This document shows positions 13,101 to 64,000 of a stretch of 64,000 nucleotides of DNA, piece by piece. Each line of letters starts with the position of its first letter. The first letter of the stretch is position 1. The position numbers were made by a program, and so were the translations under genes. The stretch is from Anthoceros angustus. Lineage: Eukaryota > Plantae > Anthocerotophyta. Below the pieces are notes generated by a model. It saw only the letters and a list, made by a program, of their open reading frames with translations, did no database searches and was not told the origin of the DNA. The stretch covers positions 1,612,001 to 1,676,000 of the forward strand of contig VJWM01000063.1 in the NCBI GenBank assembly GCA_010909165.1, written 5' to 3'.

Positions 13101-13689
13101 AGGGATGAGACCCGATGGTGTCACTTTTTTGGCTCTCCTCTCTGCTTGTAGTCACGTGTGCAGGGTGGATGAAGGCCTGGAGTATTTTGAAAGCATGAGT
13201 AGAGATTACGGCATCAGTGCCCAGTTAGAACACTACGGTTGTGTGATCGATCTGGTTGGCCGAGCAGGCCTGTTTTACAAGGCAGAAGATTTGCTTCTGA
13301 GAATGCCAGTTGAACCTGACCTTGCTGTATGGTTAAGCTTGCTTGGTGCGTGTCAGAAACATGGCAATGCTGTGTTGGGAAGGCGAGCCTTCGACCGCGC
13401 CATAGAAATGAATCCCCAAGAAGCTGCAGCATATGTTCTCATGTTGAACATCTACGCTGATGCCGGAATGTGGAACAGCGTGAAAGAGATAGACGAGCTA
13501 AGGCAGAGAGCGGAGGCATGGAAGAAGAGTCCGGGCCAAAGCTGGATCGAGCATAACCATGAGGTGCACAAATTTATAGTGGGAGACCGCAGGCACGAGC
13601 AGGGAGTACGGCTTTTGGAATTTCTGAACCAGTTAAGTTGGGAGCTGACGGAGGCAGGGGATCTCGTGACGTTTAACAACAAAGAATGA
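10114..13689 (+). CDS. PLS-class PPR protein, E/E+ type (PG box, no DYW), with long-L motifs
   Basis: The 1122-aa ORF has an in-frame stop at 10300 and no early ATG. Exon 10114-10217 plus GT-AG intron 10218-10328 supplies a phase-matched start. Eight S-type repeats (e.g. MYAKCGS...AQxVFD), then E1/E2 and KKSPGQSWIE...HKFIVGDRRH. Confidence 0.92.
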
Positions 13690-16038: not shown

Positions 16039-19000
16039 TCAGCTTCCTACTGGACGAGAGACTCGCACTTGGGACACTTCGAACACCGTCAATTGGCCGG
16101 GGTTTTCTTCAATATAGACAACGATTTCTTTTTGGTGGCTAAATGAATATTCAAGTCGCCTTTGTTTTTCATTTGTGTAAATTCCTTGGTTTTCACTTTC
16201 CGACGACGCCTGCGTCCGTAGCATTGGTGGACTCCTCGGATGCTTCTCGTCCCCAACCAAAAAACTGTGCACCAGGCCGTCCTCGTCTGTCCACCAGCTC
16301 TGACCTGGCTGCTTCCGTGCCCTCATTCTTCTCCTCATCGCCTGCAACTCCTGTGCCTGCTCCCACATCTGGGCACCGGTGTATATGTTGGACATCAACA
16401 AATATGCTGCAGCATCTGTGTTGTCTAGCTTCAATGCTTCGTTGAAAGCATGGCAACCCACCTCCACGTTGCTCCACTTTCGGCAACCAGCCATCAGCGT
16501 GTGCCAAACTGAAGAAGTAGGGGGCACAGGCATTGATTTTACCAACGCTAGTGCCTGATCCAGTTGTCCTGCACGCCCCAGGAGATCTACCATGCATGTG
16601 TAGTGGTCCTCCGTGGGTGTGATGCCGTAGAGTCCGCTCATATTGTCGAAGTACTCCCATCCCTTCTTCACTTGACCCGTATGAGTGCATACAGTTAGTA
16701 CGCTAAGTAATGTAACGCTGTCTGGTTGTACGCCGTCTTCTTTCATTCTCTGGAGCAAGTCGAAGACCAGGTCACTTTGTCCTTGACAGGTGTAGCCGGC
16801 AATGAGTGCACTCCAGGCCACGAGATTCCTTTCGGGCAACGAATCAAACACCTTCTGTGCTTCAACCATGCTCCCGGACTTTCCATACATGTTAATCAAA
16901 CTGCCAGCAACAAACACATCGGATTGAAACCCGAGTTCTACAATCTGTGCATGTAGCTGCCTTCCCAGATACAGAGCTGCCACATCCGCACATGCCTGGA
17001 GCAGGCACACAAATGCCATTGAATCGGGTACAATGATGCCCTCTTCTAGCATAGCACTAAAAACATGAAGGGCTTCCTGCCCCATGCCCTGCTGGGAATA
17101 GCCTGCTATCAGGGCAGTCCATGTCACCACATCTTTCTGACCAAGTCCATCAAACAGCCTCTGAGCATTTTCCAAGCTACCACTCTTTACGTACATGTTT
17201 ACCAAACTGTTGGCTATATATACATCAGCTTGTAGGCCCTGTTCTCTAATCTGCTTATGGAGCTGCTTCCCCTTCTCCAACGCCAGGGCACCCACACTTG
17301 CACATGCCTGCAAGAGGCACACAAATGTCACGGAATCGGGTACAGCCATGTCTTCGTCTTGCATAGCACTGTATAGGTGAAGGGCTTCGTGCCCCATGCC
17401 ATGCTGGGAATACCCTGCTATCATGGCAGTCCACAACCCCACATCCTTGTGACCAAACCCGTCAAACACTCTCTCCGCATCTTCCAAGCTGCCACACTTT
17501 GCATACATGTTCACCAAACTGCTGGCTACAAACCTATCAGATTGACGTCCTTGCTCTCTAATTTGTGCATGCAGCTGCTTCCCCATCTCCAAAGCCAAAG
17601 TGCCCACACTTGCACATGCCTGAAGGACACACACAAATGTCACCGAATCGGGTACAGTGCGGCCTTCATCTTGCATAACCCTATAAAGGCGCATGGCTTC
17701 CTGCCCCATACCCTGTTGGGCATACCCTGCTATTAGGGCATTCCACGCCACCACATCCTTTTGCCCAAGTCCGTCAAACACTCTGTGAGCATCTTCAAAG
17801 CTGCCACATTTTGAGTACATATTCACCAAACTGTTGGCTACAAACACATCAACCTCATGACCTCCTTCTCTAATTTCCGCATGAAGTTGCTTCCCCTTCT
17901 CCAAAGCTGGCCTGCCTAAACTAGCACACGCCAGCAGGAGGCCCAGAAAAGTCACCGAATCGGGTACAGCCTTGCCCTCCTCCTGCATAGCAGTGTAGAG
18001 ACGAAGCGCTTCCTGCCCCATTCCCTGCTGGGAATACCCTGCTATCATGGCATTCCACAAAACCACACCTTTCTCACCCAGTCCATCAAACACTCTCCGA
18101 GCATCTTCCAAACTACCACACTTCGCATACATGTTCACCAATCCGCTGGCCAAAAACACATCATCCTGATATCCTCGTTCTCTAATCTCCTCATGAAACT
18201 GCCTCCCCTTCTCCAAACCCGGGCCGCCCACACTGCCGCAAGCCTGAAGCAGGGACACAAACGTCACGGAATTCGGCACAGCCATGCCTTCAGCTTCCAT
18301 AACACCGTACAGACGAAGCGCCTCCTGCCCCATACCCTGCTGAGCATACCCTGCAATCAGAGCAGTCCATGTCACCACATCCTTCTCACCAAGTCCGTCA
18401 AACACTCTCCGAGCATCTTCCAAGCTGCCGCACTTGGCATACATGTTCACCAAACTGCTGCCCACAAACACATGACCCTCATGTCCTCCGTCCCTAATCC
18501 GCAAATGCAGCTCCCTCCCCTTCTCCAAACCCCCAGTCCCCAAACTCGCACACGCCTGCAAAAGGCACACAAATGTGACAGCATCCGGTGCCACCACGCC
18601 CTCCTCCTCCATGCACCCATAAATCCAAAGAGCTCCTTCCCCCATTCCCTGCCGCACATACCCTCCAATCAAGGCATTCCACGTCACCACATCCCTCCGC
18701 CCCGCACCAAGCCCCTCGAAGACAGTCCGAGCGTCCTCCAGTCTGCTGCACTTCACATACATGTCCACCAACCCATTCCAAACCACCAGCTCCTGCTCCA
18801 ATTCCACTCCCCCCGCCACCACATCCGCATGCACCTCCTTCCCCGCCTCCAAATCCCCCCCCCTTGCGCAAGCCTGCAATGCTGCCGCATACACATGACC
18901 GTCCGGCTTCACTCCCGACCTCCGCATCCGACGATACAGCCGCACGGCTTGCCTGTCTTCCCCGTGCTTAACATGAGCAGAGATTATGGCAGACCACGTG

Positions 19001-19359
19001 AAGGCGTCCGGCCTCGCCACCACCTCAAACAAATCCATGGCATCCTCCAACCTCCCATGAGAAGCATACATCCGCAGAAGGTGATTGCACAGGAACGTAT
19101 CCGACTCGCACCCCTTCCTCACCATCAAGGCATGCACCCGCCGACCCAGAACCAGAACCAGATCCAGATTCCGGTCCCCGGCCCTCTTCGCTCCGCATTT
19201 CTTCACGATCGAACAAAGCACAGACGTGGAAATGCCACGATCCAGCTGCACCAAAACTCCCAAGGCCTCCACAGCCTCGGCGACGCGGCCATCTAGACAC
19301 AGCCGACTCACGGTCTCGTCCGTTACGCAAGCTGGCGTTCTTGCGAGCATGATCGTCAC
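16039..19359 (-). CDS. PLS-class PPR protein, E+ type with WW-type PG box, DYW truncated
   Basis: 1106-aa ORF with eight PLS triplets, E1/E2 and ARKQPGQSWWTDEDGLVHSFLVGDEKHP, followed by an unrecognisable tail. True start uncertain (in-frame ATG 19350 or an upstream exon). Confidence 0.92.
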   Translation of the reverse strand: MTIMLARTPACVTDETVSRLCLDGRVAEAVEALGVLVQLDRGISTSVLCSIVKKCGAKRAGDRNLDLVLVLGRRVHALMVRKGCESDTFLCNHLLRMYASHGRLEDAMDLFEVVARPDAFTWSAIISAHVKHGEDRQAVRLYRRMRRSGVKPDGHVYAAALQACARGGDLEAGKEVHADVVAGGVELEQELVVWNGLVDMYVKCSRLEDARTVFEGLGAGRRDVVTWNALIGGYVRQGMGEGALWIYGCMEEEGVVAPDAVTFVCLLQACASLGTGGLEKGRELHLRIRDGGHEGHVFVGSSLVNMYAKCGSLEDARRVFDGLGEKDVVTWTALIAGYAQQGMGQEALRLYGVMEAEGMAVPNSVTFVSLLQACGSVGGPGLEKGRQFHEEIRERGYQDDVFLASGLVNMYAKCGSLEDARRVFDGLGEKGVVLWNAMIAGYSQQGMGQEALRLYTAMQEEGKAVPDSVTFLGLLLACASLGRPALEKGKQLHAEIREGGHEVDVFVANSLVNMYSKCGSFEDAHRVFDGLGQKDVVAWNALIAGYAQQGMGQEAMRLYRVMQDEGRTVPDSVTFVCVLQACASVGTLALEMGKQLHAQIREQGRQSDRFVASSLVNMYAKCGSLEDAERVFDGFGHKDVGLWTAMIAGYSQHGMGHEALHLYSAMQDEDMAVPDSVTFVCLLQACASVGALALEKGKQLHKQIREQGLQADVYIANSLVNMYVKSGSLENAQRLFDGLGQKDVVTWTALIAGYSQQGMGQEALHVFSAMLEEGIIVPDSMAFVCLLQACADVAALYLGRQLHAQIVELGFQSDVFVAGSLINMYGKSGSMVEAQKVFDSLPERNLVAWSALIAGYTCQGQSDLVFDLLQRMKEDGVQPDSVTLLSVLTVCTHTGQVKKGWEYFDNMSGLYGITPTEDHYTCMVDLLGRAGQLDQALALVKSMPVPPTSSVWHTLMAGCRKWSNVEVGCHAFNEALKLDNTDAAAYLLMSNIYTGAQMWEQAQELQAMRRRMRARKQPGQSWWTDEDGLVHSFLVGDEKHPRSPPMLRTQASSESENQGIYTNEKQRRLEYSFSHQKEIVVYIEENPGQLTVFEVSQVRVSRPVGS

Positions 19360-19913
19360 TCCCCGCTCCCTTGAGCGCCAGCGCTGTAAGTTCCTTGTTC
19401 AATCCATTCGACACACGAGAAAAGCTAGAAACGAAGAGAGCCGAAATTGTTCCTTGCCTTCTTCCATTGTTTCCTGCCGGGACCAAATGCTCTTGTTGTT
19501 GGTCCAGCAGGAGACAATTCCCCCCTTACCTACGTCGCTGCAGTGACTGGGTGCAAACTTGCCGGAACCACATGCTATTGTTGTTGTGTACACAATTCTG
19601 CACAGAGACATCTGTCTGTCTCAGACAGGTTAGTCGACCTTGTCTGCAGAGAGCAGCAGATGCTCGAACAACCACTCAGATTCCTCAAGCTGGAGCTGAA
19701 GAGAAGAATGTTTTACAAATGCAGCAAACACCAGCTACGTAGAACAAAATTTGGAGTCCTCTGCCTACGCATATCCAGTTAAAGCTTTCTTGTATCTTTG
19801 CTACCTAGGCAGGGGACATTCAGGCAGAGGACATGGGTTGGGATTGCCTGACATCTTATTGCAAGAAACAGAGGGCTGGATGGAAGTTCAGCAGCAATTA
19901 CTAGGGACAAGAA

Positions 19914-33362: not shown

Positions 33363-34232
33363 TCAAGCCTGGATGCTGGGTTTCCCTCTCGTGTACAGTA
33401 GACAGCTGGAGAGGAAGGATGTAGCTTTGGTATCTGAGGATGGTTGCTTTGTTGTGTCTTCTGTCCACAATAGTGGTGTTTTCCGCTCCTTTGCAAATAC
33501 TTCATCTTCTTTCCATGGAGCTCCGTGCCCAGCAGGCTCCTTCGGAAGCTTGTTGTCTGTGACACGTCTTCAACGCTGGTGAGTAGATGCATTCATTCCT
33601 GCCGAGTTGTGCACTTTGCGCATCTCCTACGTTGGAATGCGGAGATCTGACTTTCCAGGCTGTGTTCTTGTCATCAGGGCACGCGAGTCTTGCGGCATGA
33701 GGCCCGTGAACAACAGTGGGTCCCCACTCCCCACCAAGTATGTACACTTGCTCCCACCAAACAGAAGCCCAGAAATCGAGAACCTCCAGGCTCCAGTCTC
33801 CAGTCTCTAGGCTCCAGGCTCCAGGCTCCAGGCTCCCTGTCGGTATGCTGCTGGGCTGAATTTGCCATGCTGTAGCGGCTGATTCGGGCCCGTCCCAGAG
33901 CCGTGCTCTTCCAAATGTCAAACCATTTCAAACAGCAGGATCGGATTTAAACAACTGTTTCCTGGCAGATCCTCCGGCAGCGGCAGCGGCAGCGGCATCG
34001 GCAGCGGCGGGGGACCCTATGCTTTCGCCACAATGTGCGTTACTATTTGCCGTTCCGTGCTTGTGGAATCTGTGCCCGCTTTTTATTAACGCTAACCGTT
34101 CACATCTACCCGTGAATGATGGACTGTAAGGCCTTGGAGGAGTTTTCCTCCTGTACAATATTCAAGTTCTCCCCGTCTATGTACATATCGCTCCCCGAAC
34201 TCGCCTGTATGTGTACAGCCTCTTTCAATGTA

Positions 34233-34756: not shown

Positions 34757-35928
34757 TACATGTGCACATGGTCACCATTGCTTAAGCTCGTCCACTCCAC
34801 CTCCAACGGTTCCAAGTTAATATATAATTAAATTTTTATGTTAGTTTAAATAATATGTTTTGAATACATAGGTGCTAAAAGGATGAATGATTGATGACGT
34901 GAGTTCACGGGTATTAGAGCATCTTGATGATATATGAGAGTTTTTGCTCAAACTTATCGTTAAGTGATGATGGAATGAGAGTTCGCCTCATTGGACAAGT
35001 ACCTCCGTAACTGTAATTATACTTGATAACAATTTGGCCAAAGCTTCCGCAGCCGGCAGGACGGTTGGGACCTGTGATCAAGCCTGGATGCTGGGTTTCC
35101 CTCTCGTGTACAGTAGACAGCTGGAGAGGAAGGATGTAGCTTTGGTATCTGAGGATGGTTGCTTTGTTGTGTCTTCTGTCCACAGTGGTGTTTTCCGCTC
35201 CTTTGCAAATACTTCATCTTCTTTCCATGGAGCTCCGTGCCCAGGCTCCTTCGGAAGCTTGTTGTCTGTGACACGTCTTCAACGCTGGTGAGTAGATGCA
35301 TTCATTCCTGCCGAGTTGTGCACTTTGCGCATCTCCTACGTTGGAATGCGGAGATCTGACTTTCCAGGCTGTGTTCTTGTCATCAGGGCACGCGAGTCTT
35401 GCGGCATGAGGCCCGTGAACAACAGTGGGTCCCCACTCCCACCAAGTATGTACACTTGCTCCCACCAAACAGAAGCCCAGAAATCGAGAACCTCCAGGCT
35501 CCAGTCTCCAGTCTCTAGGCTCCAGGCTCCAGGCTCCAGGCTCCCTGTCGGTATGCTGCTGGGCTGAATTTGCCATGCTGTAGCGGCTGATTCGGGCCCG
35601 TCCCAGAGCCGTGCTCTTCCAAATGTCAAACCATTTCAAACAGCAGGATCGGATTTAAAACAACTGTTTCCTGGCAGATCCTCCGGCAGCGGCATCGGCA
35701 GCGGCGGGGACCCTATGCTTTCGCCACAATGTGCGTTACTATTTGCCGTTCCGTGCTTGTGGAATCTGTGCCCGCTTTTTATTAACGCTAACCGTTCACA
35801 TCTACCCGTGAATGATGGACTGTAAGGCCTTGGAGGAGTTTTCCTCCTGTACAATATTCAAGTTCTCCCCGTCTATGTACATATCGCTCCCCGAACTCGC
35901 CTGTATGTGTACAGCCTCTTTCAATGTA

Positions 35929-37790: not shown

Positions 37791-38006
37791 ATTCCATCCA
37801 AGTGTACTGAAAGAGTTTTCTTGTTCTTCGTACAGCCTCTCGATCAAAATTTCGGAAAGCAAGTGTTCTGTGCACTGATCAGAATATGACAAAGCAATGT
37901 GTTGCTCTAAACTGGGCATGCTAGGTGGATGTCGTCAATTACTCATCAGATCACGTACATAGTGATGCACACATCTTTGGGCTCCTGATGAAAGCACAGA
38001 GCAAGA

Positions 38007-41000
38007 ATGGTACTTGATTCGCGGGGTGGAGGGCCACAGGACTTCTGTACTCATCAGATTAGGGGATTTGCGGGTCTTGTAGGGAAGGCTTCCGCGCAAC
38101 TGACTGTAAGGAGTCGAGCATTAGCAAACACGGAAGCCGGGAGGTGCAGCAGCCTGCCAAGGAAGGCATCCCAAGCCCATCCAAGAGAAGACTTTCAGCT
38201 TGCTGAAGTAAGATCTTCAAGCGTAACGGCCGATACTGTGAACAGACTATGCGAGCAGGGGCAGCTGACTGAGGCAATCGAGGCCCTTGAAATTCTGGTG
38301 CAGAAGGAGGATCGAATTTCCAAGCCTCTCCTGTATACTCTCCTTAAAGCATGCGCGGTTAGGAAGGATCTGGTTCTGGGTCGTCGTGTTCATGCTCTTT
38401 CCGTGAAGACGGGTTATGACTCGGACACGTTCTTGTCCAATCACATCCTGCGAATGTATGCTTCTCAAGCAAGGTTGCAAGAAGCGATGGATGTGTTCAC
38501 CGTGGTTACTGAACCAGATGCCTTCATGTGGTCGTCCATCATTTCTGCACATGTGAGACAAGGACAAGCTAAGCAGGCCATCAAACTGTATCATGAGATG
38601 CGCAGGTCAAGTGTGAAGCCAGATGGCCATGTGTTTGTTGCAGCCCTGCAGGCGTGTGCTCGGGGAGCAGACTTGGAAACTGGGCAGCAGGTGCATACTG
38701 ATGTGTTGGCCAGTGGGGTTGAGCCTGATTCATTTGTTTGTAGTTGCTTGGTGGACATGTATGCAAAGTGTGGCAGCTTGGAAGAAGCTCAAAGAGTGTT
38801 TGCTGGACTTCGTCACAAAACTGTGGTGACGTGGAATGCGATGATGACCGGATATTCCCAGCAGGGCATGGGTAGGGAGGCCCTTTGTCTCTTCAGTGAA
38901 ATGCAAAAGGAAGGCCTGACTGCACCTGATGCTGTGACTTTTGTGTGCCTCCTGCAGGCATGTGCGAGTGTGGGCATCCCGGCAATGGAGAGGGGCAAGC
39001 AGCTTCATAGACAGATTGAAGAACAGGGACTGCATGTTGATGGAGTCGTAGGTTGCAGCCTGGTCAACATGTATGCAAAGTGTGGCAGCTTGGAAGACGC
39101 TCAAAGAGTGTTTGCTGGACTTCGTCAAAAGGATGTGGTGACGTGGAATGCCATGATAACCGGATGTTCCCAGAAGGGAATGGGCCAGCAGGCTCTTAGT
39201 CTTTACAATGCTATGCAGAAAGAAGGCATGGCTGCGCCCAATCATGTTACATTCGTGGGCCTTTTGCAGGCGTGTGCAAGTCTGGGCACCCAGGCATTGG
39301 AGAACGGAAAGAATCTTCATGCAGAGATTGAAAAACAAGGGCTTCAATCTCGTGTGATTGTAGCCAACAGTCTGATAAATATGTATGCCAAGTGTGGGAG
39401 CCTGGAGGATGCTCACAGCATTTTTAATGGGCTTGGTCAGAAGGATGTGGTGACCTGGAATGCCATGATAGCAGGGTATTCCCAGCAGGGCATGGTTCAG
39501 GAGGCCTTTCATCTTTTCAGCGCTATGCAAGAAGAAGGAAGTGCTGCACCACCTGATTCTGTGACATATGCAAGCCTCCTCCACACATGTGCAAGTCTGG
39601 GTAACTCAGCTTTGGAGAAGGGGAAGCGGCTTCACGTCCAAATTGAAGAAGAAGGGCTTCTAGCTGATGTGTTTGTTGCTAACTGTTTGGTAGACATGTA
39701 TGCAAAGTGTGGCAGCCTAGAGGATGCCCAGAGAGTGTTTGACGGGCTTGGTCAAAAAGATGTGGTGACTTGGAATGCCATTTTAGCAGGATATTCCCAA
39801 CAGAACATGGGTCAGGAAGCGCTTAATCTGTACAGTGCTATGATAGCAGAAGGCGGTCCTGCACCTGATTCTGTGACATTTGTGTGCCTCCTACAGGCAT
39901 GTGCAAGTGTGGGTACACCAGCGTTGGAGATGGGGAAGCAGCTTGATGCACAGATTGGCAAGCAAGGGCTTCAAGCTGATGTGTTGGTGGCAAACGGTTT
40001 GATTAACATGTATGCAAAGTGTGGCAGTCTAGTGGATGCCCAGACCGTGTTTAACAGAGTTGGTAACAAAGATGTGATGTTGTGGAATTCCATGATAGCA
40101 GGATATTTGCAGGCGGGACGGGGCCTTGATGCCCTTCATCTTTACAGTGCTATGCAGCAAGAAGGCATGGCTTGTCCTAATTCTGCAACATTTGTGTGCC
40201 TCCTGCAAGCATGTGCAAGTGTGGGCACCCCGGCTTTGGAGAAGGGGCAGCAGATTCATTCACAGATTGGAGAAAGAGGGCTTCAGGTTGATATGGTTGT
40301 AGGTTCGAGCCTGGTGAACATGTATGCAAAGTGTGGCAGCCTTAGCGATGCTAAAACTGTCTTTGACAAACTTGTCGACAAAGATGTGGTGACATGGAGC
40401 GCTCTAATAGCAGGATACGCTCAGCAGGGCATGGGTCCGGAAGCCCTCCATCTTTACAGTGCTATGAAAGATGAAGGAATCTCTGCACCTGACTCTGTGA
40501 CATTTGTTTGCCTTCTGCAGGCTTGTGCAAGTGTAGGTAATGCTGCTTTGCAGAAGGGGAAGCAGCTTCATGCGCAGATTGGAGAACAAGGGCTTCAGGT
40601 GGATCTATTCGTAGCCAACAGTCTGATAAACATGTACGCAAAGTGTGGCAGTGTAGAGGATGCCCAAAACGTTTTTGATATGCTCGGTCAAAAAGACGTG
40701 ATCACGTGGAATGCCATGATAGCAGGATATGCTCAGCAGGGCATGGGTCAGGAAGCCCTTCATCTCTACGGCGGAATGGAAGAAGAAGGCCTTGCTGCAC
40801 CTGATTCAGTGACGTTTGTGTCCCTCCTTCAGGCATGTGCAAGTGTGGGCACCCTGGCTTTGGAGAAGGGGAGGGAGCTCCATGCACAGATTGGGAAACA
40901 AGGCCTTCAGGCTGATGTGGTAGTAGGCTGCAGCTTGGTAAACATGTACGCAAAGTGTGGCAGCCTACAAGATGCTCAGAGTGTGTTTGACAGTCTCAAT

Positions 41001-42020
41001 GAAAAGAATGTGGCGACCTGGACTGCTCTCATCACAGGCTATATGCAGCAGGGCATGGGTCAGGAAGCCCTTCGTCTTCATAGTGCCATGCAAGATGAAG
41101 GCATTGCTCCAGAGCATTCCGTGACATTTGTGTGCCTCCTGCAAGCATGTGCAGGTGTGGCAGCACTGGATGCAGGGAGACAGCTTCATGCACAGGTCGA
41201 AGAACAAGGGCTCCAAGCCGATTCAACTATAGGCAACAGTTTGATAAACATGTACGCGAAGTCTGGGAGCATGGTTGATGCGCAGCAGGTGTTCGATACG
41301 TTGCGTGACAGGGACATCGTTGCATGGAATGCACTGATTGCAGGATACACCCGTCAAGGAGACAGTGAAGTTGTGTTTGCCTTAGTTCACAGAATGAAAG
41401 AGAGTGGCATCCAACCAGACAGCGTAACATTCCTCAGTGTTCTAACAGTATGCAGTCATGCAGGTCTGGTGGGCAAAGGGCAAGAGTACTTTGAGGCTAT
41501 GAGCAGACAGTATGGCATCAGTCCTGCGGTGGAGCACTACACTTGCATGGTAGATCTCCTGGGTAGAGCAGGCGACCTCGACATGGCACTAGCGGTGGTG
41601 CTGTCGATGCCTGTACAGCCTCACATTGCAGTTTGGCACACTCTCTTAAGTGCGTGTCGAAAGTGGACCAATGTAGACATTGGGCGGCACGCTTTCGATG
41701 AAGCAGTCAAGCTCGACGCAAAAGATGCTGCAGCCTATGTGTTGATGTCGATGATATATTCCGATGCCCAGATGTGGGAGGAGGCACAGGAGATGCAGGT
41801 GAGGAGGCAAGGAATAGGAGCGCGGAAGCAGCCAGGCCAGAGCTGGTGGACAGACGTAGATGGACTGGTTCATAGTTTTGTTGTTGGGGATAAAAAGCAT
41901 CCCCAGATCGGAGAGCATTCCTCGCTGAACCAGCGTGGTCTTGTAACGGAGCAGACTACATATGTGACACACCTGGACCCAACATCATGGGCCTTATCCG
42001 TGCTTGATCAGAGTGTGTGA
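38007..42020 (+). CDS. PLS-class PPR protein, E+ type with WW-type PG box, DYW truncated; paralog of 16039-19359
   Basis: 1337-aa ORF with ten S-type repeats at ~104-105 aa period, E1/E2 and ARKQPGQSWWTDVDGLVHSFVVGDKKHP. Possible alternative start ATG 37988 with a 71-nt intron (38010-38080). Confidence 0.93.
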   Translation: MVLDSRGGGPQDFCTHQIRGFAGLVGKASAQLTVRSRALANTEAGRCSSLPRKASQAHPREDFQLAEVRSSSVTADTVNRLCEQGQLTEAIEALEILVQKEDRISKPLLYTLLKACAVRKDLVLGRRVHALSVKTGYDSDTFLSNHILRMYASQARLQEAMDVFTVVTEPDAFMWSSIISAHVRQGQAKQAIKLYHEMRRSSVKPDGHVFVAALQACARGADLETGQQVHTDVLASGVEPDSFVCSCLVDMYAKCGSLEEAQRVFAGLRHKTVVTWNAMMTGYSQQGMGREALCLFSEMQKEGLTAPDAVTFVCLLQACASVGIPAMERGKQLHRQIEEQGLHVDGVVGCSLVNMYAKCGSLEDAQRVFAGLRQKDVVTWNAMITGCSQKGMGQQALSLYNAMQKEGMAAPNHVTFVGLLQACASLGTQALENGKNLHAEIEKQGLQSRVIVANSLINMYAKCGSLEDAHSIFNGLGQKDVVTWNAMIAGYSQQGMVQEAFHLFSAMQEEGSAAPPDSVTYASLLHTCASLGNSALEKGKRLHVQIEEEGLLADVFVANCLVDMYAKCGSLEDAQRVFDGLGQKDVVTWNAILAGYSQQNMGQEALNLYSAMIAEGGPAPDSVTFVCLLQACASVGTPALEMGKQLDAQIGKQGLQADVLVANGLINMYAKCGSLVDAQTVFNRVGNKDVMLWNSMIAGYLQAGRGLDALHLYSAMQQEGMACPNSATFVCLLQACASVGTPALEKGQQIHSQIGERGLQVDMVVGSSLVNMYAKCGSLSDAKTVFDKLVDKDVVTWSALIAGYAQQGMGPEALHLYSAMKDEGISAPDSVTFVCLLQACASVGNAALQKGKQLHAQIGEQGLQVDLFVANSLINMYAKCGSVEDAQNVFDMLGQKDVITWNAMIAGYAQQGMGQEALHLYGGMEEEGLAAPDSVTFVSLLQACASVGTLALEKGRELHAQIGKQGLQADVVVGCSLVNMYAKCGSLQDAQSVFDSLNEKNVATWTALITGYMQQGMGQEALRLHSAMQDEGIAPEHSVTFVCLLQACAGVAALDAGRQLHAQVEEQGLQADSTIGNSLINMYAKSGSMVDAQQVFDTLRDRDIVAWNALIAGYTRQGDSEVVFALVHRMKESGIQPDSVTFLSVLTVCSHAGLVGKGQEYFEAMSRQYGISPAVEHYTCMVDLLGRAGDLDMALAVVLSMPVQPHIAVWHTLLSACRKWTNVDIGRHAFDEAVKLDAKDAAAYVLMSMIYSDAQMWEEAQEMQVRRQGIGARKQPGQSWWTDVDGLVHSFVVGDKKHPQIGEHSSLNQRGLVTEQTTYVTHLDPTSWALSVLDQSV

Positions 42021-52274: not shown

Positions 52275-52347
52275 GGTCGCGTGGCCTAATGGATAAGGCG
52301 CTCGCCTCCGGAGCGGGAGATTGTGGGTTCGAGTCCCACCGTGATCG
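52275..52347 (+). tRNA. tRNA-Arg(CCG): tRNA-Arg (anticodon CCG)
   Basis: 73-nt cloverleaf: acceptor GGTCGCG/CGTGATC, D-loop TGG, anticodon arm CTCGC-CTCCGGA-GCGGG, T-arm GTGGG-TTCGAGT-CCCAC. Confidence 0.95.
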
Positions 52348-52412
52348 AGAATTACCCCTCAGCCTTTGCTGAAAGGGTATTACTTACTTTTAAGAGAGGT
52401 TACATGTGAATT

Positions 52413-52488
52413 GCGCCACATATGATGACTGCATTGACGCCACATATGATGACTGCATTGACGCCACATATGATGACTGCAGTGACGC
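52413..52488. repeat. 24-bp x3 tandem repeat
   Basis: gacgccacatatgatgactgcatt repeated. Confidence 0.92.
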
Positions 52489-52612
52489 CTCTATGTCATC
52501 GGCTTGCCATGTATGTGCAAAAGAAGAAGAAGAAGAGTTTTATTTAAGTCATGGGCTTGCCATCTATGTGCAAAAGAAGAAAAAGAGGAATTTTATTTAA
52601 GTCCACGAAGGA

Positions 52613-53010
52613 CCAAGGGCATCCACTCCCTTTAGGCACCCCATCTAAGTGCCGATCCAAGCTTAGGATGCTTAATCATGGGAGTTGGTACTTAACAGTG
52701 TGCCTAAGCTACTTACACCAAGGGCATCCACTCCCTTTAAGCACCCCATCTAATGGGAGTTGGTACTTAACAACTTGTACCATGATGTGCCTAAGCTACT
52801 TACACCAAGGGCATCCACTCCCTTTAAGCACCCCATCTAAGTATCGATCCAAGCTCATGATGCTCAATCACGGCGTTCTTATAAATGTGTATCCATTTGG
52901 CCTAAGCCAAGGGCATCCACTCCCTTTAAGCACCCCATCTAAGTATCGATCCAAGCTCATGATGCTCAATCACGGCGTTCTTATAAATGTGTATCCATTT
53001 GGCCTAAGCC
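52613..53010. repeat. ~100-bp x4 degenerate tandem array
   Basis: ccaagggcatccactcccttta(g/a)gcaccccatctaa at 52613, 52718, 52805 and 52907. Confidence 0.9.
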
Positions 53011-53159
53011 ATTTGGACACACATGGACGATGGAGGCGAGCATCTGCAAATATAAATAAATGCATTGTGTATCCATGTGTAACATAGGGGATCAGAACCC
53101 TTGCTGAAGATTTCTTCCCTGGTTTGTTTTGATTTGTTTTAAAAAAAAAAGCTTTGTAG

Positions 53160-53697
53160 ATATGTGCAAAAGACATGGATGCAAGTGATGTGGCTTGTAT
53201 GTGATAACTTTTTTGTCGCCAATATTCCACACTTAGTTGCCTCGGCATCTTCAAGAAACTTTTGTCGTCTTATATAGGCCACATCATCGCATGACGGGAT
53301 TCCGTCTTATATGGGCCACATCATCGCATGACGGGATTCCTTCGTTTTATATGGCCCACATCATTGTATGATGGTCCGTATGCGGCAGAAAACTTTGTGT
53401 CTCACAACTTGGGCTCTAGTGTTTGGATGTAGCTATGTAGGTATGTGCAAAAAAAAGAAAGCAATGTAGGTATGTGCAAAAGACATGTATGGAATACACC
53501 ATCACCGGCTTGTGTGTGATAACTTTTTTGTTGCCAATATTCCACATTTACTTGCCTCGGTATCTTCAAGAAACTTTCGTCGTCTTATATGGGCCACATC
53601 ATCGCATGACGGGATTCCTTCATTTTATATGGGCCACATCATTGTATGACGGGCCGTATGCGGCAGAAAACTTTCTGTCTCACAACTTGGGCTCTAA
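53160..53697. repeat. Local duplication (~53160-53415 and ~53471-53697) with internal GGCCACATCATCGCATGACGGGATTCC repeats
   Basis: Both blocks start tatgtgcaaaagacatg and end gcagaaaacttt.tgtctcacaacttgggctcta. Confidence 0.85.
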
Positions 53698-56053
53698 ACA
53701 ACATATGTGTAGAAAGGGGTTTCTCCTGCCAAAAGGGGTTTTGGAAAAAATCCCAACCCTATTTTGCTGGAAACTAAAGTTGGTTTGGTTTTTGTTGGTT
53801 TTTGTAGGTGCTCATCCATCGGTTTCGGGCATTCTCGGCTCCGGCACCACTTCCTGTCGAGTCATTTATACCGCTCTGGCGCCTTGTACTCAGGTTCATG
53901 GCGATTTAGTCGGTGTGATGAAGGGCCAATGACCTCATTGTTCCATAATTTCGTCATGTCCGTAGTTTGTGCATTTTGTGTGGTTTTGTATGTTTTTGTA
54001 TACCAGGGGGGCTTTGGCGCACATCAGTGCACGCCTAAATAACACTATGCGCAAACTTGTGCACGCACTATGCAAAAAGAATGCGAAAAATGATCTTCTA
54101 ATGGGGAAACATGTCCTTTTGGAGGTCTGAAGATGTGCCGGAACTCCCGACAAAATAACAAGTAGCAGACATCGGCGGAGGTTCACCTAGACCACTCTCA
54201 TATATCTATCCTATGCCCTAATGCGATGAAGAACACCCTATCCCTTTTTATCCTTTACGGTGTTTAGTCTCTTTCGTGATGACCTAATCGGGTTATCATC
54301 AAACATGCGGGGGCCCTGGGTGAACAAGTGCACCAAGGGGCAAGGGGCCAGTGCACGCACTTATGCGTGCACCAAGGGGCAAGGGGCCAGTGCACGCATA
54401 AGTGCGCGCACCAAGGTCAAGAAGGGCCTAGGAGCATGAACCCATATGGTTCATGCCTCCTAGTGCATTCAGAGTTCATCAAAGAAAAAGAGCAAAAATC
54501 TAAAAACCTCAAAAAGTCCAATTTTTGAGGCAAGTCTGTACTTGCCTAAAATTTTTGATATTTTTTGAAAATTTTGGTACTTTTTTTGATATTTTTGTTG
54601 TTTTAAAGGGTTCCTTTCGACGTTTTCAACCTTTTTTTTGCACCTCCTCAATGTGGATATGTTCTTATCTTTACTTAGCCCTCATTTTTTTCTAGTGGTT
54701 AAAACTTTGAACTAGTAGTGAGAACCTTTTGCATCTTTTGAATCTTGAGACGTTTGGCGTGGGCCTAGCTCCAAGTACAAACCATGCCACTCTCATTCTC
54801 GCACTGCACGCAGATCAAGAGCATCAGGTCAACGAAGATATTATTGTCCTAATGTCTAAGAAACAAAGTCCTATAAAATTCCCACAGCGAGAGTATAGTC
54901 TTAGGATTGACTGGTATGAATGAAAGGTTGGTGCGCAAACAAGTTTGCAATCTACAAGCCCTAAAAACTCTAAGCGTTTGTATCGTCCAACACAGCAATG
55001 ATTGCGGATGTTGGAAGCTGTTAGATGTAAGTGCGCATAAGTTTTTCCAATTACGTGTCTAGTTTGAAAGAAAAAGCCGAGCGAGAATGGGACTTTAGGT
55101 TTTGCCACGTACTTGCAATCTACAATCTCAAATAACGTGTATCAAAACAATTATTCAAAAGGTTGCGGGTGACATGTCTGCAGAGAAGTACCAAAAAGGC
55201 TGATTATAGTGCGGATTTTTCAAGTGCAAAAAAGAGTTCGGCCACGTTCGTGTGCAAAAAGGGGTTTCAGGAGAAACCCCTTTCTACACAGACGCTATTT
55301 CTAGTGTTTGGATGTTGTCATCCAGGTTTTTTCCTGCCTTTTAGGAGTTTTCTTACACACATTCACATGTTTCTTTTCGCCTGGAACACACATGCACATG
55401 TTTGGTAGACACATCTGGCCCTGCACAAAGGCCCCAGATGTTCGGTCCCATTCGATGAATACAGATGCAACGGCTCGCCATCAAGTGTCCAAATCGATGG
55501 TTGGGGACCAGAATTACATGTTCAAGAGTGTGTCTCCTCAAGGCTGCTGAAGGCTGCTGAATGTCTACTCAAGGATGCTGAAGGATAATGAAGGCCGCTG
55601 AATTTCTGCTCAAGGGTGGTGAAGGCTGCTAAAGGTTGTTCAAGGGCTAGACATGGTCCCATACTTTGTGGCTCAGGTTCAGGTTCGCGAGGGTTAGCTA
55701 GATGATATGGCTGCTTGCGCGAATGTACTTGCAAGCGCCAATGTTCCCACAGCCCCAAGAAAGAAAAACATGTGTATTGCACGCAAAAAGATTCTTGACA
55801 CACCTCTTGACCACATCGGTACATGGGGCAGCCCCCCTCCCCTTCCCTTGGCGATAATATCGGTGTGTACTAAGTTTTCTCGCCCGTGTCACGGAAAACT
55901 TCTTATGCAACCCTCAATTAAAAAAACTCTTGGTATCACAGTGACGGTATTTCATAGACACGCGGCATTCATGTGAATCACTTGCCATCTATATAGGTAT
56001 GGGCAAAAGACAAATGGCATTTATGTGGAGGTGGCGAAGACCGGGCGAAGTCA

Positions 56054-56127
56054 TGGAGATGCGGGGTATCCATCCTCGTACCTCTCACATGCTAAGCGAG
56101 CGCTCTACCCATCTGAGCTACACCCCC
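56054..56127 (-). pseudogene. tRNA-Ala(AGC): tRNA-Ala(AGC), probably pseudogene
   Basis: Reverse complement GGGGGTGTAGCTCAGATGGGTAGAGCGCTCGCTTAGCATGTGAGAGGTACGAGGATGGATACCCCGCATCTCCA. Differs from the usual plant tRNA-Ala by an extra D-loop G, an A-C mismatch in the T-stem and T-loop ATGGATA instead of ATCGATA. Confidence 0.75.
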
Positions 56128-57699: not shown

Positions 57700-58880
57700 T
57701 CAAGTGAAGCCTTACCAGATATTCTGGTGCATTACCACGGACAACAGATGCGCTTCAGAACTACGAAAAGTCCTCCATACTTAGGCCTTAACTTTGAGGT
57801 CAACCCTTGTGGTAGTGAAAAAATTCTTCAATTTCACCCAGACCTGATCACCTATTTGAAACTCTGCCTCTTTCATGTGCCTGTCAGCAAACTTCTTTTG
57901 CCTGTCCTGAGCCTTGGCCAATATCTTCTTAGCAACTTCAGGTCTGGCTCTTAACTGCTCAATGAATTCACGTGGTACTCTTGTTGTTGTCTCAAACACG
58001 CCAACATTCAACATGGAAACTACGTCCATTGCTTCGTTACCTGAAATCTGAAAAGGCATATAGCCTGTGGAGCCATGTATAGTGTTATTGTAACAAAACT
58101 CTGTATCTTCAAGATGATTACTCCAGTCTCACTAGTCCATCTGTACATAGTTTCGTAAGTATTCTTCTTGGATTCCATTCACCCTCTCTGTTGATCCATC
58201 TATATCAGGGTGGTACGCTCTGCTCATACATAATTGCACTCATAAGCTCTTCATAAGTTGTTGCTAAAACTCTGCAGTAAATCTGGAATCTCTGTCACTC
58301 ACAATCTGCATAGGGAGTCCATATAACACATATACATGCTTCTTGAACAACTGAGCAACTTCAGAAGCTTTCACTCGCTTCTTCGTAGGGATGAAATGTG
58401 CTTGCTTTCTGAATCTATTAACTACTATCATGATAGTTGTGTGTCCATCACTGGCTGGCAATGGCATAATGAAATCCATTGATATACTTTTCCAAGGCCC
58501 ACTTGGAATAGGCAGGGGTTGCAACAAACCTCGCGGACTTGTCTGCTCCACCTTATCATGCTGGCAATCTACACAAGACTTAACATACTCAACAGTATGC
58601 TTGTACATTCCAGGCCAATAAAACAGCTTTCTCAACTTCTCATAAGTTGGGGCAATCCCTCGATGACCTGCACTTGGCACATCATTACATTCTGCAAGCA
58701 ACTTCCTTCTCAACTCTTGAGAATTAGGAATCACAATCCTATTTTGCTTGAACATCAACAAGCCATCCCTAAGCTTAAACTTAGATCCCGGTTGCTCCAC
58801 TTCATTGATCCAATCCTGTACTGATGGATCTTGCAGATAAGCTTCCTTGCGTGTGAGTGTCCCTTGGCTCAATCAACATC
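57700..58880 (-). mobile_element. Ty3/gypsy retrotransposon remnant (integrase)
   Basis: ORF 58264-58872 has integrase-associated GHRG...TYEKLRKLFYWPGM...CVDCQ, GLLQPLPIPSGPWKSISMDFI and IVSDRDSRFT. ORF 57781-58059 has AQDRQKKFADRH...FQIGDQVWV. Stops and frameshifts in between. Confidence 0.93.
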
Positions 58881-59061
58881 TGTGTTGCAACTAGCTTAGG
58901 TCTCTTCAGCGTAAAAGCAGTTATTAAACTTAAACTGTACTTCCGACTCAAGGCATCAACCCAAAACCCATATCGGTGTAGTAGTTCGTGGCAAAGACAT
59001 GAGGGAAGAAACTGTAAGAGTGTGGGAAAAGAAGAGCCTTAGACAAATCGCCCAAGCAAGT

Positions 59062-61379: not shown

Positions 61380-62860
61380 CAGTTCTCGTCTACTTCAACA
61401 CACGTGTATTTCCTCACTCGCATTCCACTCTTCAATCGCTCAAGCCGCGCCGATCCACGAACACGACTCCATGAGATGTATGCCTCGCTCGTCAGGTTGC
61501 CACCGAATCACATCCGTATTGATCCTCAAGGCGGTGCTGTCTAGAGCTCCCAACCTGGGCAAATACTTTTCCGGACACACATCAGTGGCCTGCCACACCT
61601 TAGACTGGCTTTGTCGGGTGAGCTCTCGGGCCAAAGCTTTTGACAGCATGGGGGTTTTTCTTACATACATGCACCCACTGCTTTGACACACCTCCTGCAC
61701 CCCTTCCCGCATGAGGTCCTGAGTTTCTTCCCACACCACTTGCCTATGCACAATGTCAGCCGTACAAGCCGTGAATGCAATCATGCTATCTGATTTTTCA
61801 GCATGTCGCCTCATATCAAGTGGTATCCTGGCCACTTGTGTGAAATCCCCATCTCGCCACCGTGGCCTATAAAACGCTTCTGAATGCAGCGAATCTACCC
61901 CCATTGCTGGACCGTGCGTGGCATCAGCCCCAAGTAGCACATCATAATTTCTTGCGTTAGACACCAAGCAATGAACTTGGATGACAGAGGCATCCTTTGT
62001 GCCTAGCTTGAACTCTATGCGTACTGGCTCACGAGTCATTCCCATCACTCGTTCCTTGGTTCCTGCAGATGTGGTGATGTGCACTTCACATGGCTTAAGC
62101 TTATCCCGTATAGGTGGAGCCTTACATGCCGTGCCGAGCAATACCGGATCCTTTTGTATCTACCAACACATATTCTGGAGCAAAACCGTTGACCGTTACC
62201 TCCCGACCTTGATTCTTAACCATGGCAATGCCTCCTTTTCCCCGTGCCGCTGGCTTCAGGTGGTCCCCGCGTAGGCTGATACATCCAGACACCTCGTCGC
62301 GTCCTGCAGATTCCTTTTGTATCCAGGCCTTCATAGCTTGCTTAAATGGTTGCGTTTTGACTCCCAGATCACGCAAACTCATCACGGGCACATCCATTAC
62401 CTTCTCGAGCATAAGTTCAGCACTGGGTGATTTCTCTTCAGACGTCCGTCCCTCCTGGTCTTCTTCATACTGTCTAAAAGATTTGGGCATCTTGAGCTGA
62501 TTCCTTTCTTCACCCTTCTTTCTTCGCACCGCTCCACCCAAGTCGACGCTAGCCCGTTCATCCTCAGGCGACTTCGTGGCCATTAGCGCATACACCTCTG
62601 GATCCGAATCATAATCCTCAGTGATAGCAACCGAACTTCCCCCCGTGCTTACACTCATGGCTAACTTTTCTTGCAGCCTGTGCACCTCACTGAGAAGCGC
62701 TTTCCGGGTGTACCCCTCTGTTGATTTTGCCTTGTCAGACATCCGTTCCACAGCCCCCTTTGGCTTGAATTCAGGATGAGCCTGCCAACATGCTGCTTCC
62801 GTATGTCCGGTTTTGGCACACATTCGGCACTGCTCCTTCTCCTGCGTACTAGGAAGCACT
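61380..62860 (-). mobile_element. Retrotransposon fragment: gag zinc knuckle, aspartic protease, and decayed C5 DNA-methyltransferase N-terminus
   Basis: CRMCAKTGHTEAAC (CX2CX4HX4C, ~62787-62828). Protease-like VLVDT and NYDVLLG across a frameshift. Then WQPDERGIHLMESCSWIGA and, in a shifted frame at 61435-61382, LKSGMRVRKYTCVEVDEN. Confidence 0.85.
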
Positions 62861-63194: not shown

Positions 63195-64000
63195 ATGAGG
63201 GAGGAAGGTAGCTGGTAGCCGCGCAAGGGAGGCAAAAAAAACCTAAGAAAACATGGCATAACAAGAACAGGGAAATGGTGTGAGACGGAGGTGGGCAAGG
63301 ATTGTATGCAGCCGGCAAATACACCACAATCGGGAGGTGTCTACGGCGACGCTGGCGATAGGAGGCCATAGAAAGGTGGGGAGGATGAGGAGGGTAGCTT
63401 GACTGGGCTATCCTCCTCATCCACCTAGTCTGTGGTCGAGCCGTGAGGCTAGGGGAGTGCGAAGAGGCTATCGCCACGCTAATAGGGTGGGGCCATCGCA
63501 TGGCAGTCACAAGACAGGCAGAGGCAATGTGGATGACATCGTGGAGGATAGCGAGGGCGATGATGTAGCTGTTGTCCCAGCAACACCAGGAACCAGCAAG
63601 GTTCGGGCAGGAACGGGCGGTGGTCATGTTGCTTGAGGGAGGGACAAGGTGGATGTGTCGAGAGGGGCACAAACAAGGACAATGAAAACAGCTTGGGGAG
63701 TGCGGCATCACCAGCAAGTGATAGGTATGTGTTGTCTCTTGATAGCAGAGGGCCAGGTACATAGGCAGGGAATGGTAGTATCCATCAAGTGCAATGTAAT
63801 ATATGTGTGTAGGGAACATCAAGACAAGATGTGTCGCAAATGCAAGAAGATCGCTGGGCGAGCATGGGGTGAGGACATGTGAGCCTAATGTAGTTGAAGA
63901 AATGAGGGAGGAAGGTAGCTGGTAGCCGCGCAAGGGAGGCAAAAAACCTAAGAAAACATGGCATAACAAGAACAGGGAAATGGTGTGAGACGGAGGTGGG
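63195..64000. repeat. Direct repeat with ~707-bp period, continuing beyond the window
   Basis: atgagggaggaaggtagctggtagccgcgcaaggg...gagacggaggtggg at 63195 and again at 63902 to the end of the window. Confidence 0.9.

What the first reader, a model, noticed from the sequence alone, without database searches (positions are those of the whole stretch)
61380..62860. Retrotransposon carrying a decayed cytosine DNA-methyltransferase domain
Seen: on the minus strand a gag CCHC knuckle and a retropepsin-like region (VLVDT...NYDVLLG) are followed by WQPDERGIHLMESCSWIGA instead of reverse transcriptase. The codons GAG TCG TGT TCG TGG ATC GGC are three single-base changes from E-L-F-S-G-I-G, the SAM-binding motif I (FxGxG) of C5-MTases. 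After a stop/frameshift, 61435-61382 reads LKSGMRVRKYTCVEVDEN, which fits the beta-strand ending in the acidic residue of motif II. The element breaks off at ~61380 before the catalytic PC motif. Knowledge: DNMT-carrying retrotransposons have been reported in dinoflagellates and charophyte algae, and this protease-spacer-WQP-GIxLxELFxGIG layout matches such elements as I recall them. Inference: this land-plant genome hosts, or hosted, a retroelement family with its own methyltransferase, possibly for self-methylation.
Basis: partly seen in the sequence, partly recalled or inferred. Interest (0 to 1): 0.85.

Follow-up and report, generated by a model that had tools for sequence, protein, structure and literature searches.

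The report
Broken plant retrotransposon carrying DNA methyltransferase
This is a broken 1.5 kb piece of a jumping gene whose complete relatives carry a built-in gene predicted to encode a DNA-methylating enzyme; such elements were described in a green alga, and this piece, likely from a hornwort or lycophyte, adds to evidence that land plants host them too.

Summary
Window 62856-61382 (minus strand) is an internal fragment of a Ty3/Gypsy retrotransposon: gag zinc knuckle, aspartic protease, spacer and the first ~45 codons of a DNMT3-like cytosine methyltransferase. Both ends are cut off and there are clustered frameshifts. A frameshift-aware profile of relatives scores the motif I-II stretch 27.9 bits (next best in the window 0.7; 0 of 2000 shuffles reach it). 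Relatives found through the protease continue into complete DNMT3-like domains, then RT, RNase H, integrase and PHD. Some have A-coding-B-A-B terminal repeats, as described for KnitGypsy-Dnmt3 of the alga Klebsormidium. Named kin come from Calypogeia, Marchantia, Coleochaete and Closterium. The host is a seed-free, non-fern land plant, likely a hornwort or lycophyte. This copy, as assembled, cannot methylate: it lacks the catalytic motifs. Self-methylation is untested; the algal domain was inactive in yeast (inconclusive). Ten paper searches found no land-plant report, but this scan noted the family earlier in mosses. In passing: two subfamilies have a conserved, likely leaky stop between DNMT and RT. 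Verdict: a new member of a known kind, in a dead copy.

The parts
62788..62829 (-). gag nucleocapsid zinc knuckle CX2CX4HX4C. It is the second knuckle; the first knuckle and the rest of gag seen in the nearest relatives are missing.
   Evidence: Read directly. Aligns with P0003 and P0004 from 62856.
62230..62787 (-). gag C-terminal region and linker to the protease, open frame
   Evidence: 29% identity to P0004 over 258 columns (62856-62155); 55% to P0003 over 83 columns at 62382-62134
61810..62229 (-). Retropepsin-type aspartic protease, broken by a cluster of small indels just after the catalytic Asp-Thr (62155-62100)
   Evidence: phmmer 1e-34 to P0003. Relatives hit Asp_protease_2 and gag-asp_proteas. 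Breaks.
61518..61809 (-). Protease-to-DNMT spacer, open frame
   Evidence: YDVLLG-to-motif-I distance is 157 aa; relatives show 85-202, the nearest and the P0055 group 137-157
61382..61517 (-). Decayed start of a DNMT3-like C5 methyltransferase: motif I (FxGxG, degenerate) and the strand leading to motif II. It has a frameshift cluster at 61457-61435 and is cut before motif IV.
   Evidence: 27.9 bits against a next best of 0.7, 0 of 2000 shuffles. Aligns collinearly with P0004, P0055 and P0014.

Best explanation
The stretch is a broken internal remnant (gag knuckle, protease, start of a DNMT3-like domain) of a Ty3/Gypsy retrotransposon family whose complete members encode gag-protease-DNMT3-RT-RNase H-integrase-PHD and likely use the methyltransferase to methylate their own newly made cDNA. 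Shown: the anatomy of the fragment, its place in the family, the domain order and terminal repeats of relatives, the DNMT3-like fold and catalytic motifs of relatives, and purifying selection on their DNMT. Inferred: that the enzyme is active on DNA, that it is packaged with Gag and acts on cDNA in the particle before integration, and that this pre-marks new insertions. In two subfamilies a conserved, likely leaky stop would make gag-PR-DNMT the abundant product and RT-IN the rare one. This copy, as assembled, is non-functional: it lacks LTRs, most of gag, the catalytic Cys motif and all of RT-IN. It was probably whittled down by deletions in a repeat-rich intergenic patch.
For: phmmer with the protease-spacer peptide gave 41 hits among 1.84e9 representatives; 38 are element-like and 3 bacterial InlB-repeat proteins were dropped. 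Of the 10 that run >=140 aa past the protease, 8 hit a DNMT profile. In a protease tree the window groups with P0003/4/6/7/19 (SH-aLRT 97); P0004 there has motifs I, II and IV, and P0007 has motif I. A second search gave 23 long proteins, 18 with PF00145; P0058, P0059 and P0061 are single ORFs with PR-DNMT-RT-RH-INT in that order. Of 33 metagenome loci, 9 hold PR, DNMT, RT, RH and INT in order and 6 of these also PHD. L028 has A-coding-B-A-B repeats (A 344 nt at 91%, B 115 nt at 93%); L013 and L033 have the B-A-B end (12 loci examined). The family profile hits DNMT3A at 7e-16, DRM-type chains at 3e-8 to 3e-5 and bacterial HaeIII/HhaI at 1e-6 to 1e-4. The AlphaFold model of the L002 domain has pLDDT 92; all 33 listed Foldseek rows are DNMT3A/B/C complexes (best E 8e-19, TMt 0.80). 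dN/dS of the DNMT in the L002 group is 0.09-0.13 (4 pairs), like protease and RT (0.03-0.13), against 0.39-0.44 for the spacer. The conserved stop is in 19 of 21 loci.
Against: The window copy holds no catalytic motif, RT, integrase or LTR, so its class rests on relatives. The host genome was not available. Two long-tailed relatives (P0010, P0013) and the Closterium protein models P0028/P0242 show no DNMT hit. The K. nitens Gypsy DNMT domain gave no methylation in yeast; the authors call this inconclusive because DNMT3B also failed (PMC5890265 section 10). In the decaying L006 group, DNMT dN/dS is 0.36-1.40 (8 usable pairs of 9), higher on the whole than RT (0.22-0.50). The Pro of the PC motif is replaced by Glu, Ser or Asp in many relatives, P0004 included. 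Relatives' CpG o/e of 0.53-0.59 is no lower than that of host genes here (0.44-0.65), so it gives no separate sign of self-methylation.
Confidence: 0.8

Rival explanations
1. Same element, but the DNMT3-like domain does not methylate the element's cDNA. It would serve as a DNA- or chromatin-binding module that, with the PHD finger, steers integration, or it would methylate RNA.
For: No activity of the Klebsormidium domain in yeast. The PC proline varies. A PHD finger sits at the end of Pol in 6 of the 9 loci that hold PR to INT in order. The domain occurs at two places in Pol, before RT or between RNase H and integrase.
Against: The catalytic Cys and the motif I Phe and Gly are invariant in all 23 rows of alignment A4, and the motif VI Glu-Asn-Val is kept in at least 90%. 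dN/dS is about 0.1. Related DIRS-borne DNMT3 domains do methylate CG in yeast.
Confidence: 0.25
2. The breaks and truncations are assembly artefacts (long-read indels, a collapsed repeat), and the plant carries a more complete copy here.
For: The indels are clustered while about 480 codons in between are free of stops. No reads could be laid.
Against: A model in which the losses shorten runs of one base did not beat the alternative at either cluster (run minus non-run -4.1 and -8.0; 3 and 11 of 60 shuffles reach these). The nearest relative P0003 is damaged in the same part of the protease. Both ends pass into low-GC sequence, sharply at the 5' end.
Confidence: 0.1
3. The motif-like tail is chance, and the fragment is an ordinary Gypsy gag-protease remnant.
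For: Pfam finds no DNA_methylase in the window. The pieces are weak alone. Motif I is degenerate.
Against: 27.9 bits against null maxima of 10.9 and 7.5. It lies at the family's spacing after the protease. The relatives were collected through the protease, independently of the tail.
Confidence: 0.02
4. The fragment is algal or other foreign DNA misjoined into the plant contig, so it says nothing about this land plant.
For: The nearest relatives are unnamed assemblies of unknown organism. The family occurs in algae.
Against: The fragment sits among decayed repeats in one contig with land-plant genes. Homologues lie in named liverwort assemblies on 13-47 Mb scaffolds.
Confidence: 0.05

Closest known systems
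KnitGypsy-Dnmt3 of Klebsormidium nitens (de Mendoza et al. 2018, PMC5890265; called 'streptophytes (Gypsy-DNMT3)' in bioRxiv 10.64898/2026.05.21.726589)
   Same: Gypsy domain set with an intronless, unrearranged DNMT3-like domain in Pol. DIRS-like A-coding-B-A-B repeats and purifying selection (<0.2) are reported there, and both are seen here in relatives.
   Different: The host here is a land plant and the copy is a 1.5 kb remnant. The window's subfamily is a separate protease clade. Two subfamilies of relatives split Pol by a conserved stop after the DNMT.
SymbioDIRS-Dnmt3 (Symbiodinium; PMC5890265)
   Same: DNMT3 domain inside a retrotransposon Pol; shown there to methylate CG de novo in yeast
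   Different: A DIRS element with tyrosine recombinase in a dinoflagellate. Relatives here have a DDE integrase (rve, Integrase_H2C2) and PHD.
Host DNMT3 of mosses and animals (PpDNMT3b, Yaari et al. 2019, PMC6453930; human DNMT3A/B)
   Same: Best sequence and structure matches of the relatives' domain are DNMT3A/B/C; motif order is unrearranged
   Different: Only 20-22% identity in the structural alignments. The domain is fused between a retroviral-type protease and RT, and is not a host gene.
EpiLTRs of Cymbomonas and Euglena (bioRxiv 10.64898/2026.05.21.726589, passages)
   Same: LTR retrotransposons with a cytosine methyltransferase and a chromatin-reader domain
   Different: Their DNMT is reported as sister to DNMT4 and comes with a DAM and a chromodomain. 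Relatives here have DNMT3-like plus PHD, and Pfam showed no DAM.

Membership tests
Gypsy-DNMT3 (KnitGypsy-Dnmt3-like) retrotransposons | gag zinc knuckle and retropepsin upstream in Pol | tested here: met
   In the window itself
Gypsy-DNMT3 (KnitGypsy-Dnmt3-like) retrotransposons | Intronless C5-methyltransferase domain in the polyprotein | tested here: met
   Motifs I-II only in the window, decayed; complete in relatives
Gypsy-DNMT3 (KnitGypsy-Dnmt3-like) retrotransposons | The domain is DNMT3-like and unrearranged | tested here: met
   Met in relatives by ranking against solved structures. The window piece is too short to test alone. No tree with reference DNMT classes was built.
Gypsy-DNMT3 (KnitGypsy-Dnmt3-like) retrotransposons | RT, RNase H and DDE integrase in Gypsy order downstream | tested here: inconclusive
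   Absent from the truncated window copy. Present in relatives, but not shown for the six-member protease clade that holds the window, whose records end earlier.
Gypsy-DNMT3 (KnitGypsy-Dnmt3-like) retrotransposons | A-coding-B-A-B terminal repeats | tested here: inconclusive
   No repeat pair flanks the window fragment. Present in relatives L028, L013 and L033.
Gypsy-DNMT3 (KnitGypsy-Dnmt3-like) retrotransposons | One clade with the K. nitens element | not testable with these tools
   No named K. nitens sequence came back from the searches
Active C5 DNA methyltransferase | Motifs IV (catalytic Cys), VI (ENV), VIII and X present | tested here: not met
   The window copy ends before motif IV. 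Met in intact relatives such as L002 and L003.
Active C5 DNA methyltransferase | SAM-dependent cytosine methylation | not testable with these tools
   Needs a bench assay; the published yeast test of the algal domain was negative and called inconclusive
DIRS/Ngaro tyrosine-recombinase elements | Tyrosine recombinase in place of a DDE integrase | tested here: not met
   Relatives carry rve and Integrase_H2C2; no Phage_integrase hit in 15 proteins or in the L002 and L025 ORFs

The most novel reading that the evidence does not exclude
DNMT3-carrying Gypsy elements are an ancient streptophyte lineage that crossed onto land and persists as several subfamilies in liverworts, mosses and hornworts or lycophytes. 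In some subfamilies a leaky stop after the DNMT makes the methyltransferase at Gag-like abundance, so particles would carry many copies that pre-methylate the cDNA: transposon-encoded de novo methylation inside land plants.
Probability: 0.35. Interest if true: 0.72.

Novelty: new member of a known kind. Interest (0 to 1): 0.42.

Why it matters
Cytosine methylation is the plant's main tool against retrotransposons. Elements that keep their own DNMT3-like domain under purifying selection were described in one alga. Finding them in named liverwort genomes, and as a distinct subfamily in a hornwort or lycophyte, would bring the question of what a transposon does with its own methyltransferase into transformable models (Marchantia, Anthoceros). 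It also warns that DNMT3 counts in seed-free plant genomes can include transposon domains. This particular copy is a relic and serves as a pointer, not as an experimental object.

Tried and rejected
No whole genome is held for the window, so copies in the host were not searched; tblastn and blastn of the window against itself show no second copy. No sequencing run was listed; this is no evidence either way, and no reads were laid. The word-index search with P0002 for longer proteins scored 0 of 891 candidates; the full HMMER search then found the family. IMG/VR scans gave no element: 0 of 65 stretches for the close alignment and 1 of 28 for the wider one, a 43-residue match in a 71% GC contig with no other element domain (L001). 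The ESM Atlas gave no answer in seven tries. I first took the host for a fern from its PPR genes; the GINT1 tree rejects a clade with ferns (AU p 0.005) or seed plants (p 0.004) and does not reject lycophytes, bryophytes, liverworts or mosses. The integrase remnant at 57736-58960 was tested as the element's missing 3' part and rejected: 23-32% identity to seven family integrases against 41-60% among them. The idea that the indel clusters are homopolymer read errors was tested and not supported. DNA of the 34 loci, terminal repeats included, has no blastn match in the window at E 1e-4, as expected at this divergence. The paper I recall on stop-codon readthrough in the SIRE1 retroelement was not held, so the CARYYA readthrough motif is recalled knowledge. 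No complex-prediction job was sent.

Full report
Observation. Pfam finds nothing in these peptides, so the test had to come from relatives.

Relatives. phmmer of the 239-residue protease-spacer frame against 1.84 billion representatives gave 41 hits. Three are bacterial InlB-repeat proteins and were dropped. The other 38 match mainly through the protease. Ten of them run at least 140 residues beyond it, and 8 of those 10 hit a DNMT profile; three shorter ones do too. A search with the protease-DNMT part of one hit gave 23 long proteins, 18 with PF00145; P0058, P0059 and P0061 are single ORFs with protease, DNMT, RT, RNase H and integrase in that order. A metagenome scan gave 33 loci; 9 hold all five domains in order and 6 of these end in a PHD finger. 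These loci were picked by DNMT patterns, so they show the layout, not how often the DNMT is present.

Is the window's tail really a DNMT start? A 44-column profile from 26 relatives, window excluded and run with frameshifts allowed, scores 61517-61391 at 27.9 bits. The next best place in the window scores 0.7; 0 of 2000 shuffles of the tail reach the score (max 10.9); 30 whole-window shuffles reach at most 7.5. The distance from YDVLLG to motif I is 157 residues, within the relatives' range of 85-202. In a quick protease tree of 66 rows the window groups with P0003, P0004, P0006, P0007 and P0019 (SH-aLRT 97; highest identity 58%), and P0004 carries motifs I, II and IV.

State of this copy. Homology runs from 62856 to 61382 only. 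The first knuckle and the rest of gag are missing, as is everything after motif II. No terminal repeat pair flanks it. There are two clusters of small indels, after the protease's catalytic Asp-Thr and after motif I. A test for homopolymer read errors was not supportive, but no reads could be laid, so an assembly artefact is not excluded. The integrase remnant 2.5 kb downstream belongs to another Gypsy element (23-32% identity against 41-60% within the family).

What the intact domain is. The family profile matches DNMT3A at 7e-16, ahead of DRM-type chains (3e-8 to 3e-5) and bacterial enzymes (1e-6 to 1e-4). The AlphaFold model of the L002 domain (pLDDT 92) has DNMT3A/B/C complexes in all 33 listed Foldseek rows. 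The catalytic Cys is invariant in alignment A4, while the Pro before it varies. Pairwise dN/dS is 0.09-0.13 in the L002 group, like protease and RT and below the spacer (0.39-0.44). In the decaying L006 group it is 0.36-1.40. L028 has A-coding-B-A-B repeats, and L013 and L033 have the B-A-B end.

Host. The window holds three long PPR genes with E motifs, a POT transporter, a GH17 and GINT1. GINT1 is 56-67% identical to the 120 listed relatives. Its tree places it outside ferns and seed plants and not inside mosses or liverworts; AU tests reject ferns and seed plants (p about 0.005) and reject none of the other groupings tried. No named hornwort was in the set. PMC13386178 (passages) reports the PLS subfamily as confined to land plants, rare in liverworts and some mosses, and much expanded in hornworts and lycophytes. 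A hornwort or lycophyte is therefore likely; this rests on one gene with a long branch. Named kin of the element come from Calypogeia fissa, Marchantia polymorpha, Coleochaete scutata and Closterium (20 proteins of the first search looked up, 6 clusters named to these organisms).

Mechanism. Shown: layout, fold, motifs and selection in relatives. Inferred: the polyprotein is cut by its protease, and the DNMT3-like domain travels in the particle and methylates cDNA before integration, as proposed in PMC5890265 (section 11). A conserved stop followed by CAR-YY between DNMT and RT in 19 of 21 loci, from two subfamilies, resembles a leaky-stop signal that I recall from TMV and SIRE1 and could not look up; it would make gag-PR-DNMT the major product. 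Against: the algal domain was inactive in yeast, which the authors call inconclusive (section 10). I put the identity of the fragment at about 0.9 and cDNA self-methylation at about 0.5.

Comparison with print. PMC5890265 (read: abstract, introduction, first part of the results, passages of section 9, sections 10 and 11, searches in three supplements; the main supplementary PDF was too large to read and figures are not held) describes KnitGypsy-Dnmt3 only in K. nitens. PMC10952607, PMC7027989, PMC11982613 and PMC6453930 (passages) mention no such element. Ten library searches (one search was about PPR genes) listed no land-plant report. The library lacks most subscription papers, and unseen supplements or repeat databases may hold it. 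This scan noted the same family twice before, in moss-like DNA; I confirmed the liverwort part and the layout, not the peat-moss assignment.

Verdict. A real, dead fragment of a Gypsy-DNMT3-like element: a new member of a known kind, in a further land-plant lineage. Interest 0.42, carried by the family and not by this copy.

Noticed in passing
L002:5083, L003:2081, L004:806, L006:13811, L007:2686, L028:12995 and others: A conserved stop (TAG or TAA) followed by CAR-YY lies 222-243 nt before RT, in the RT frame, in 19 of 21 loci that span DNMT to RT; only 8 of 147 other stops are followed by CAR. L002-L004 have TAG-CARYYA exactly, the leaky-stop signal I recall from TMV and SIRE1. The loci belong to two subfamilies, so this is about two independent cases. 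Other subfamilies (P0058, P0059, P0061, P0099) have one open ORF.
   Followed up: partly
P0062-P0070, L025:2-4729: A second layout, RT-RNase H-DNMT-integrase-PHD, forms its own clade in the DNMT tree (SH-aLRT 96, quick tree), so the domain has occupied two positions in Pol.
   Followed up: partly
P0241, P0041, P0009 (Calypogeia fissa); P0016, P0036 (Marchantia polymorpha); P0030 (Coleochaete scutata): Pieces of these elements are annotated as unnamed or hypothetical host genes in public genomes. P0241 has the protease plus motifs I, II and IV.
   Followed up: partly
window 57736-58960 (-): Decayed RNase H end and integrase of an unrelated ordinary Gypsy element
   Followed up: yes
window 63195-63295 and 63902-64000: A 101-nt stretch repeated about 705 nt apart at 98% identity, cut by the window end; origin unknown
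   Followed up: no
window 10303-13689 (+), 16039-19398 (-), 37992-42020 (+): Three intronless PPR genes of 1100-1350 codons ending in an E motif without a DYW hit, typical of plants with heavy organellar RNA editing
   Followed up: partly
window 52275-52347 (+), 56054-56127 (-): Two tRNA-like matches in a repeat-rich patch with tandem arrays at 52410-55645
   Followed up: no
window 33502-33927 and 35214-35654 (-): Two open frames with near-identical translations, suggesting a local duplication
   Followed up: no
L031:1597-2649: A divergent DNMT3-like domain in a 65% GC contig with no element domain detected in 2.9 kb; could be a host gene or another element
   Followed up: no
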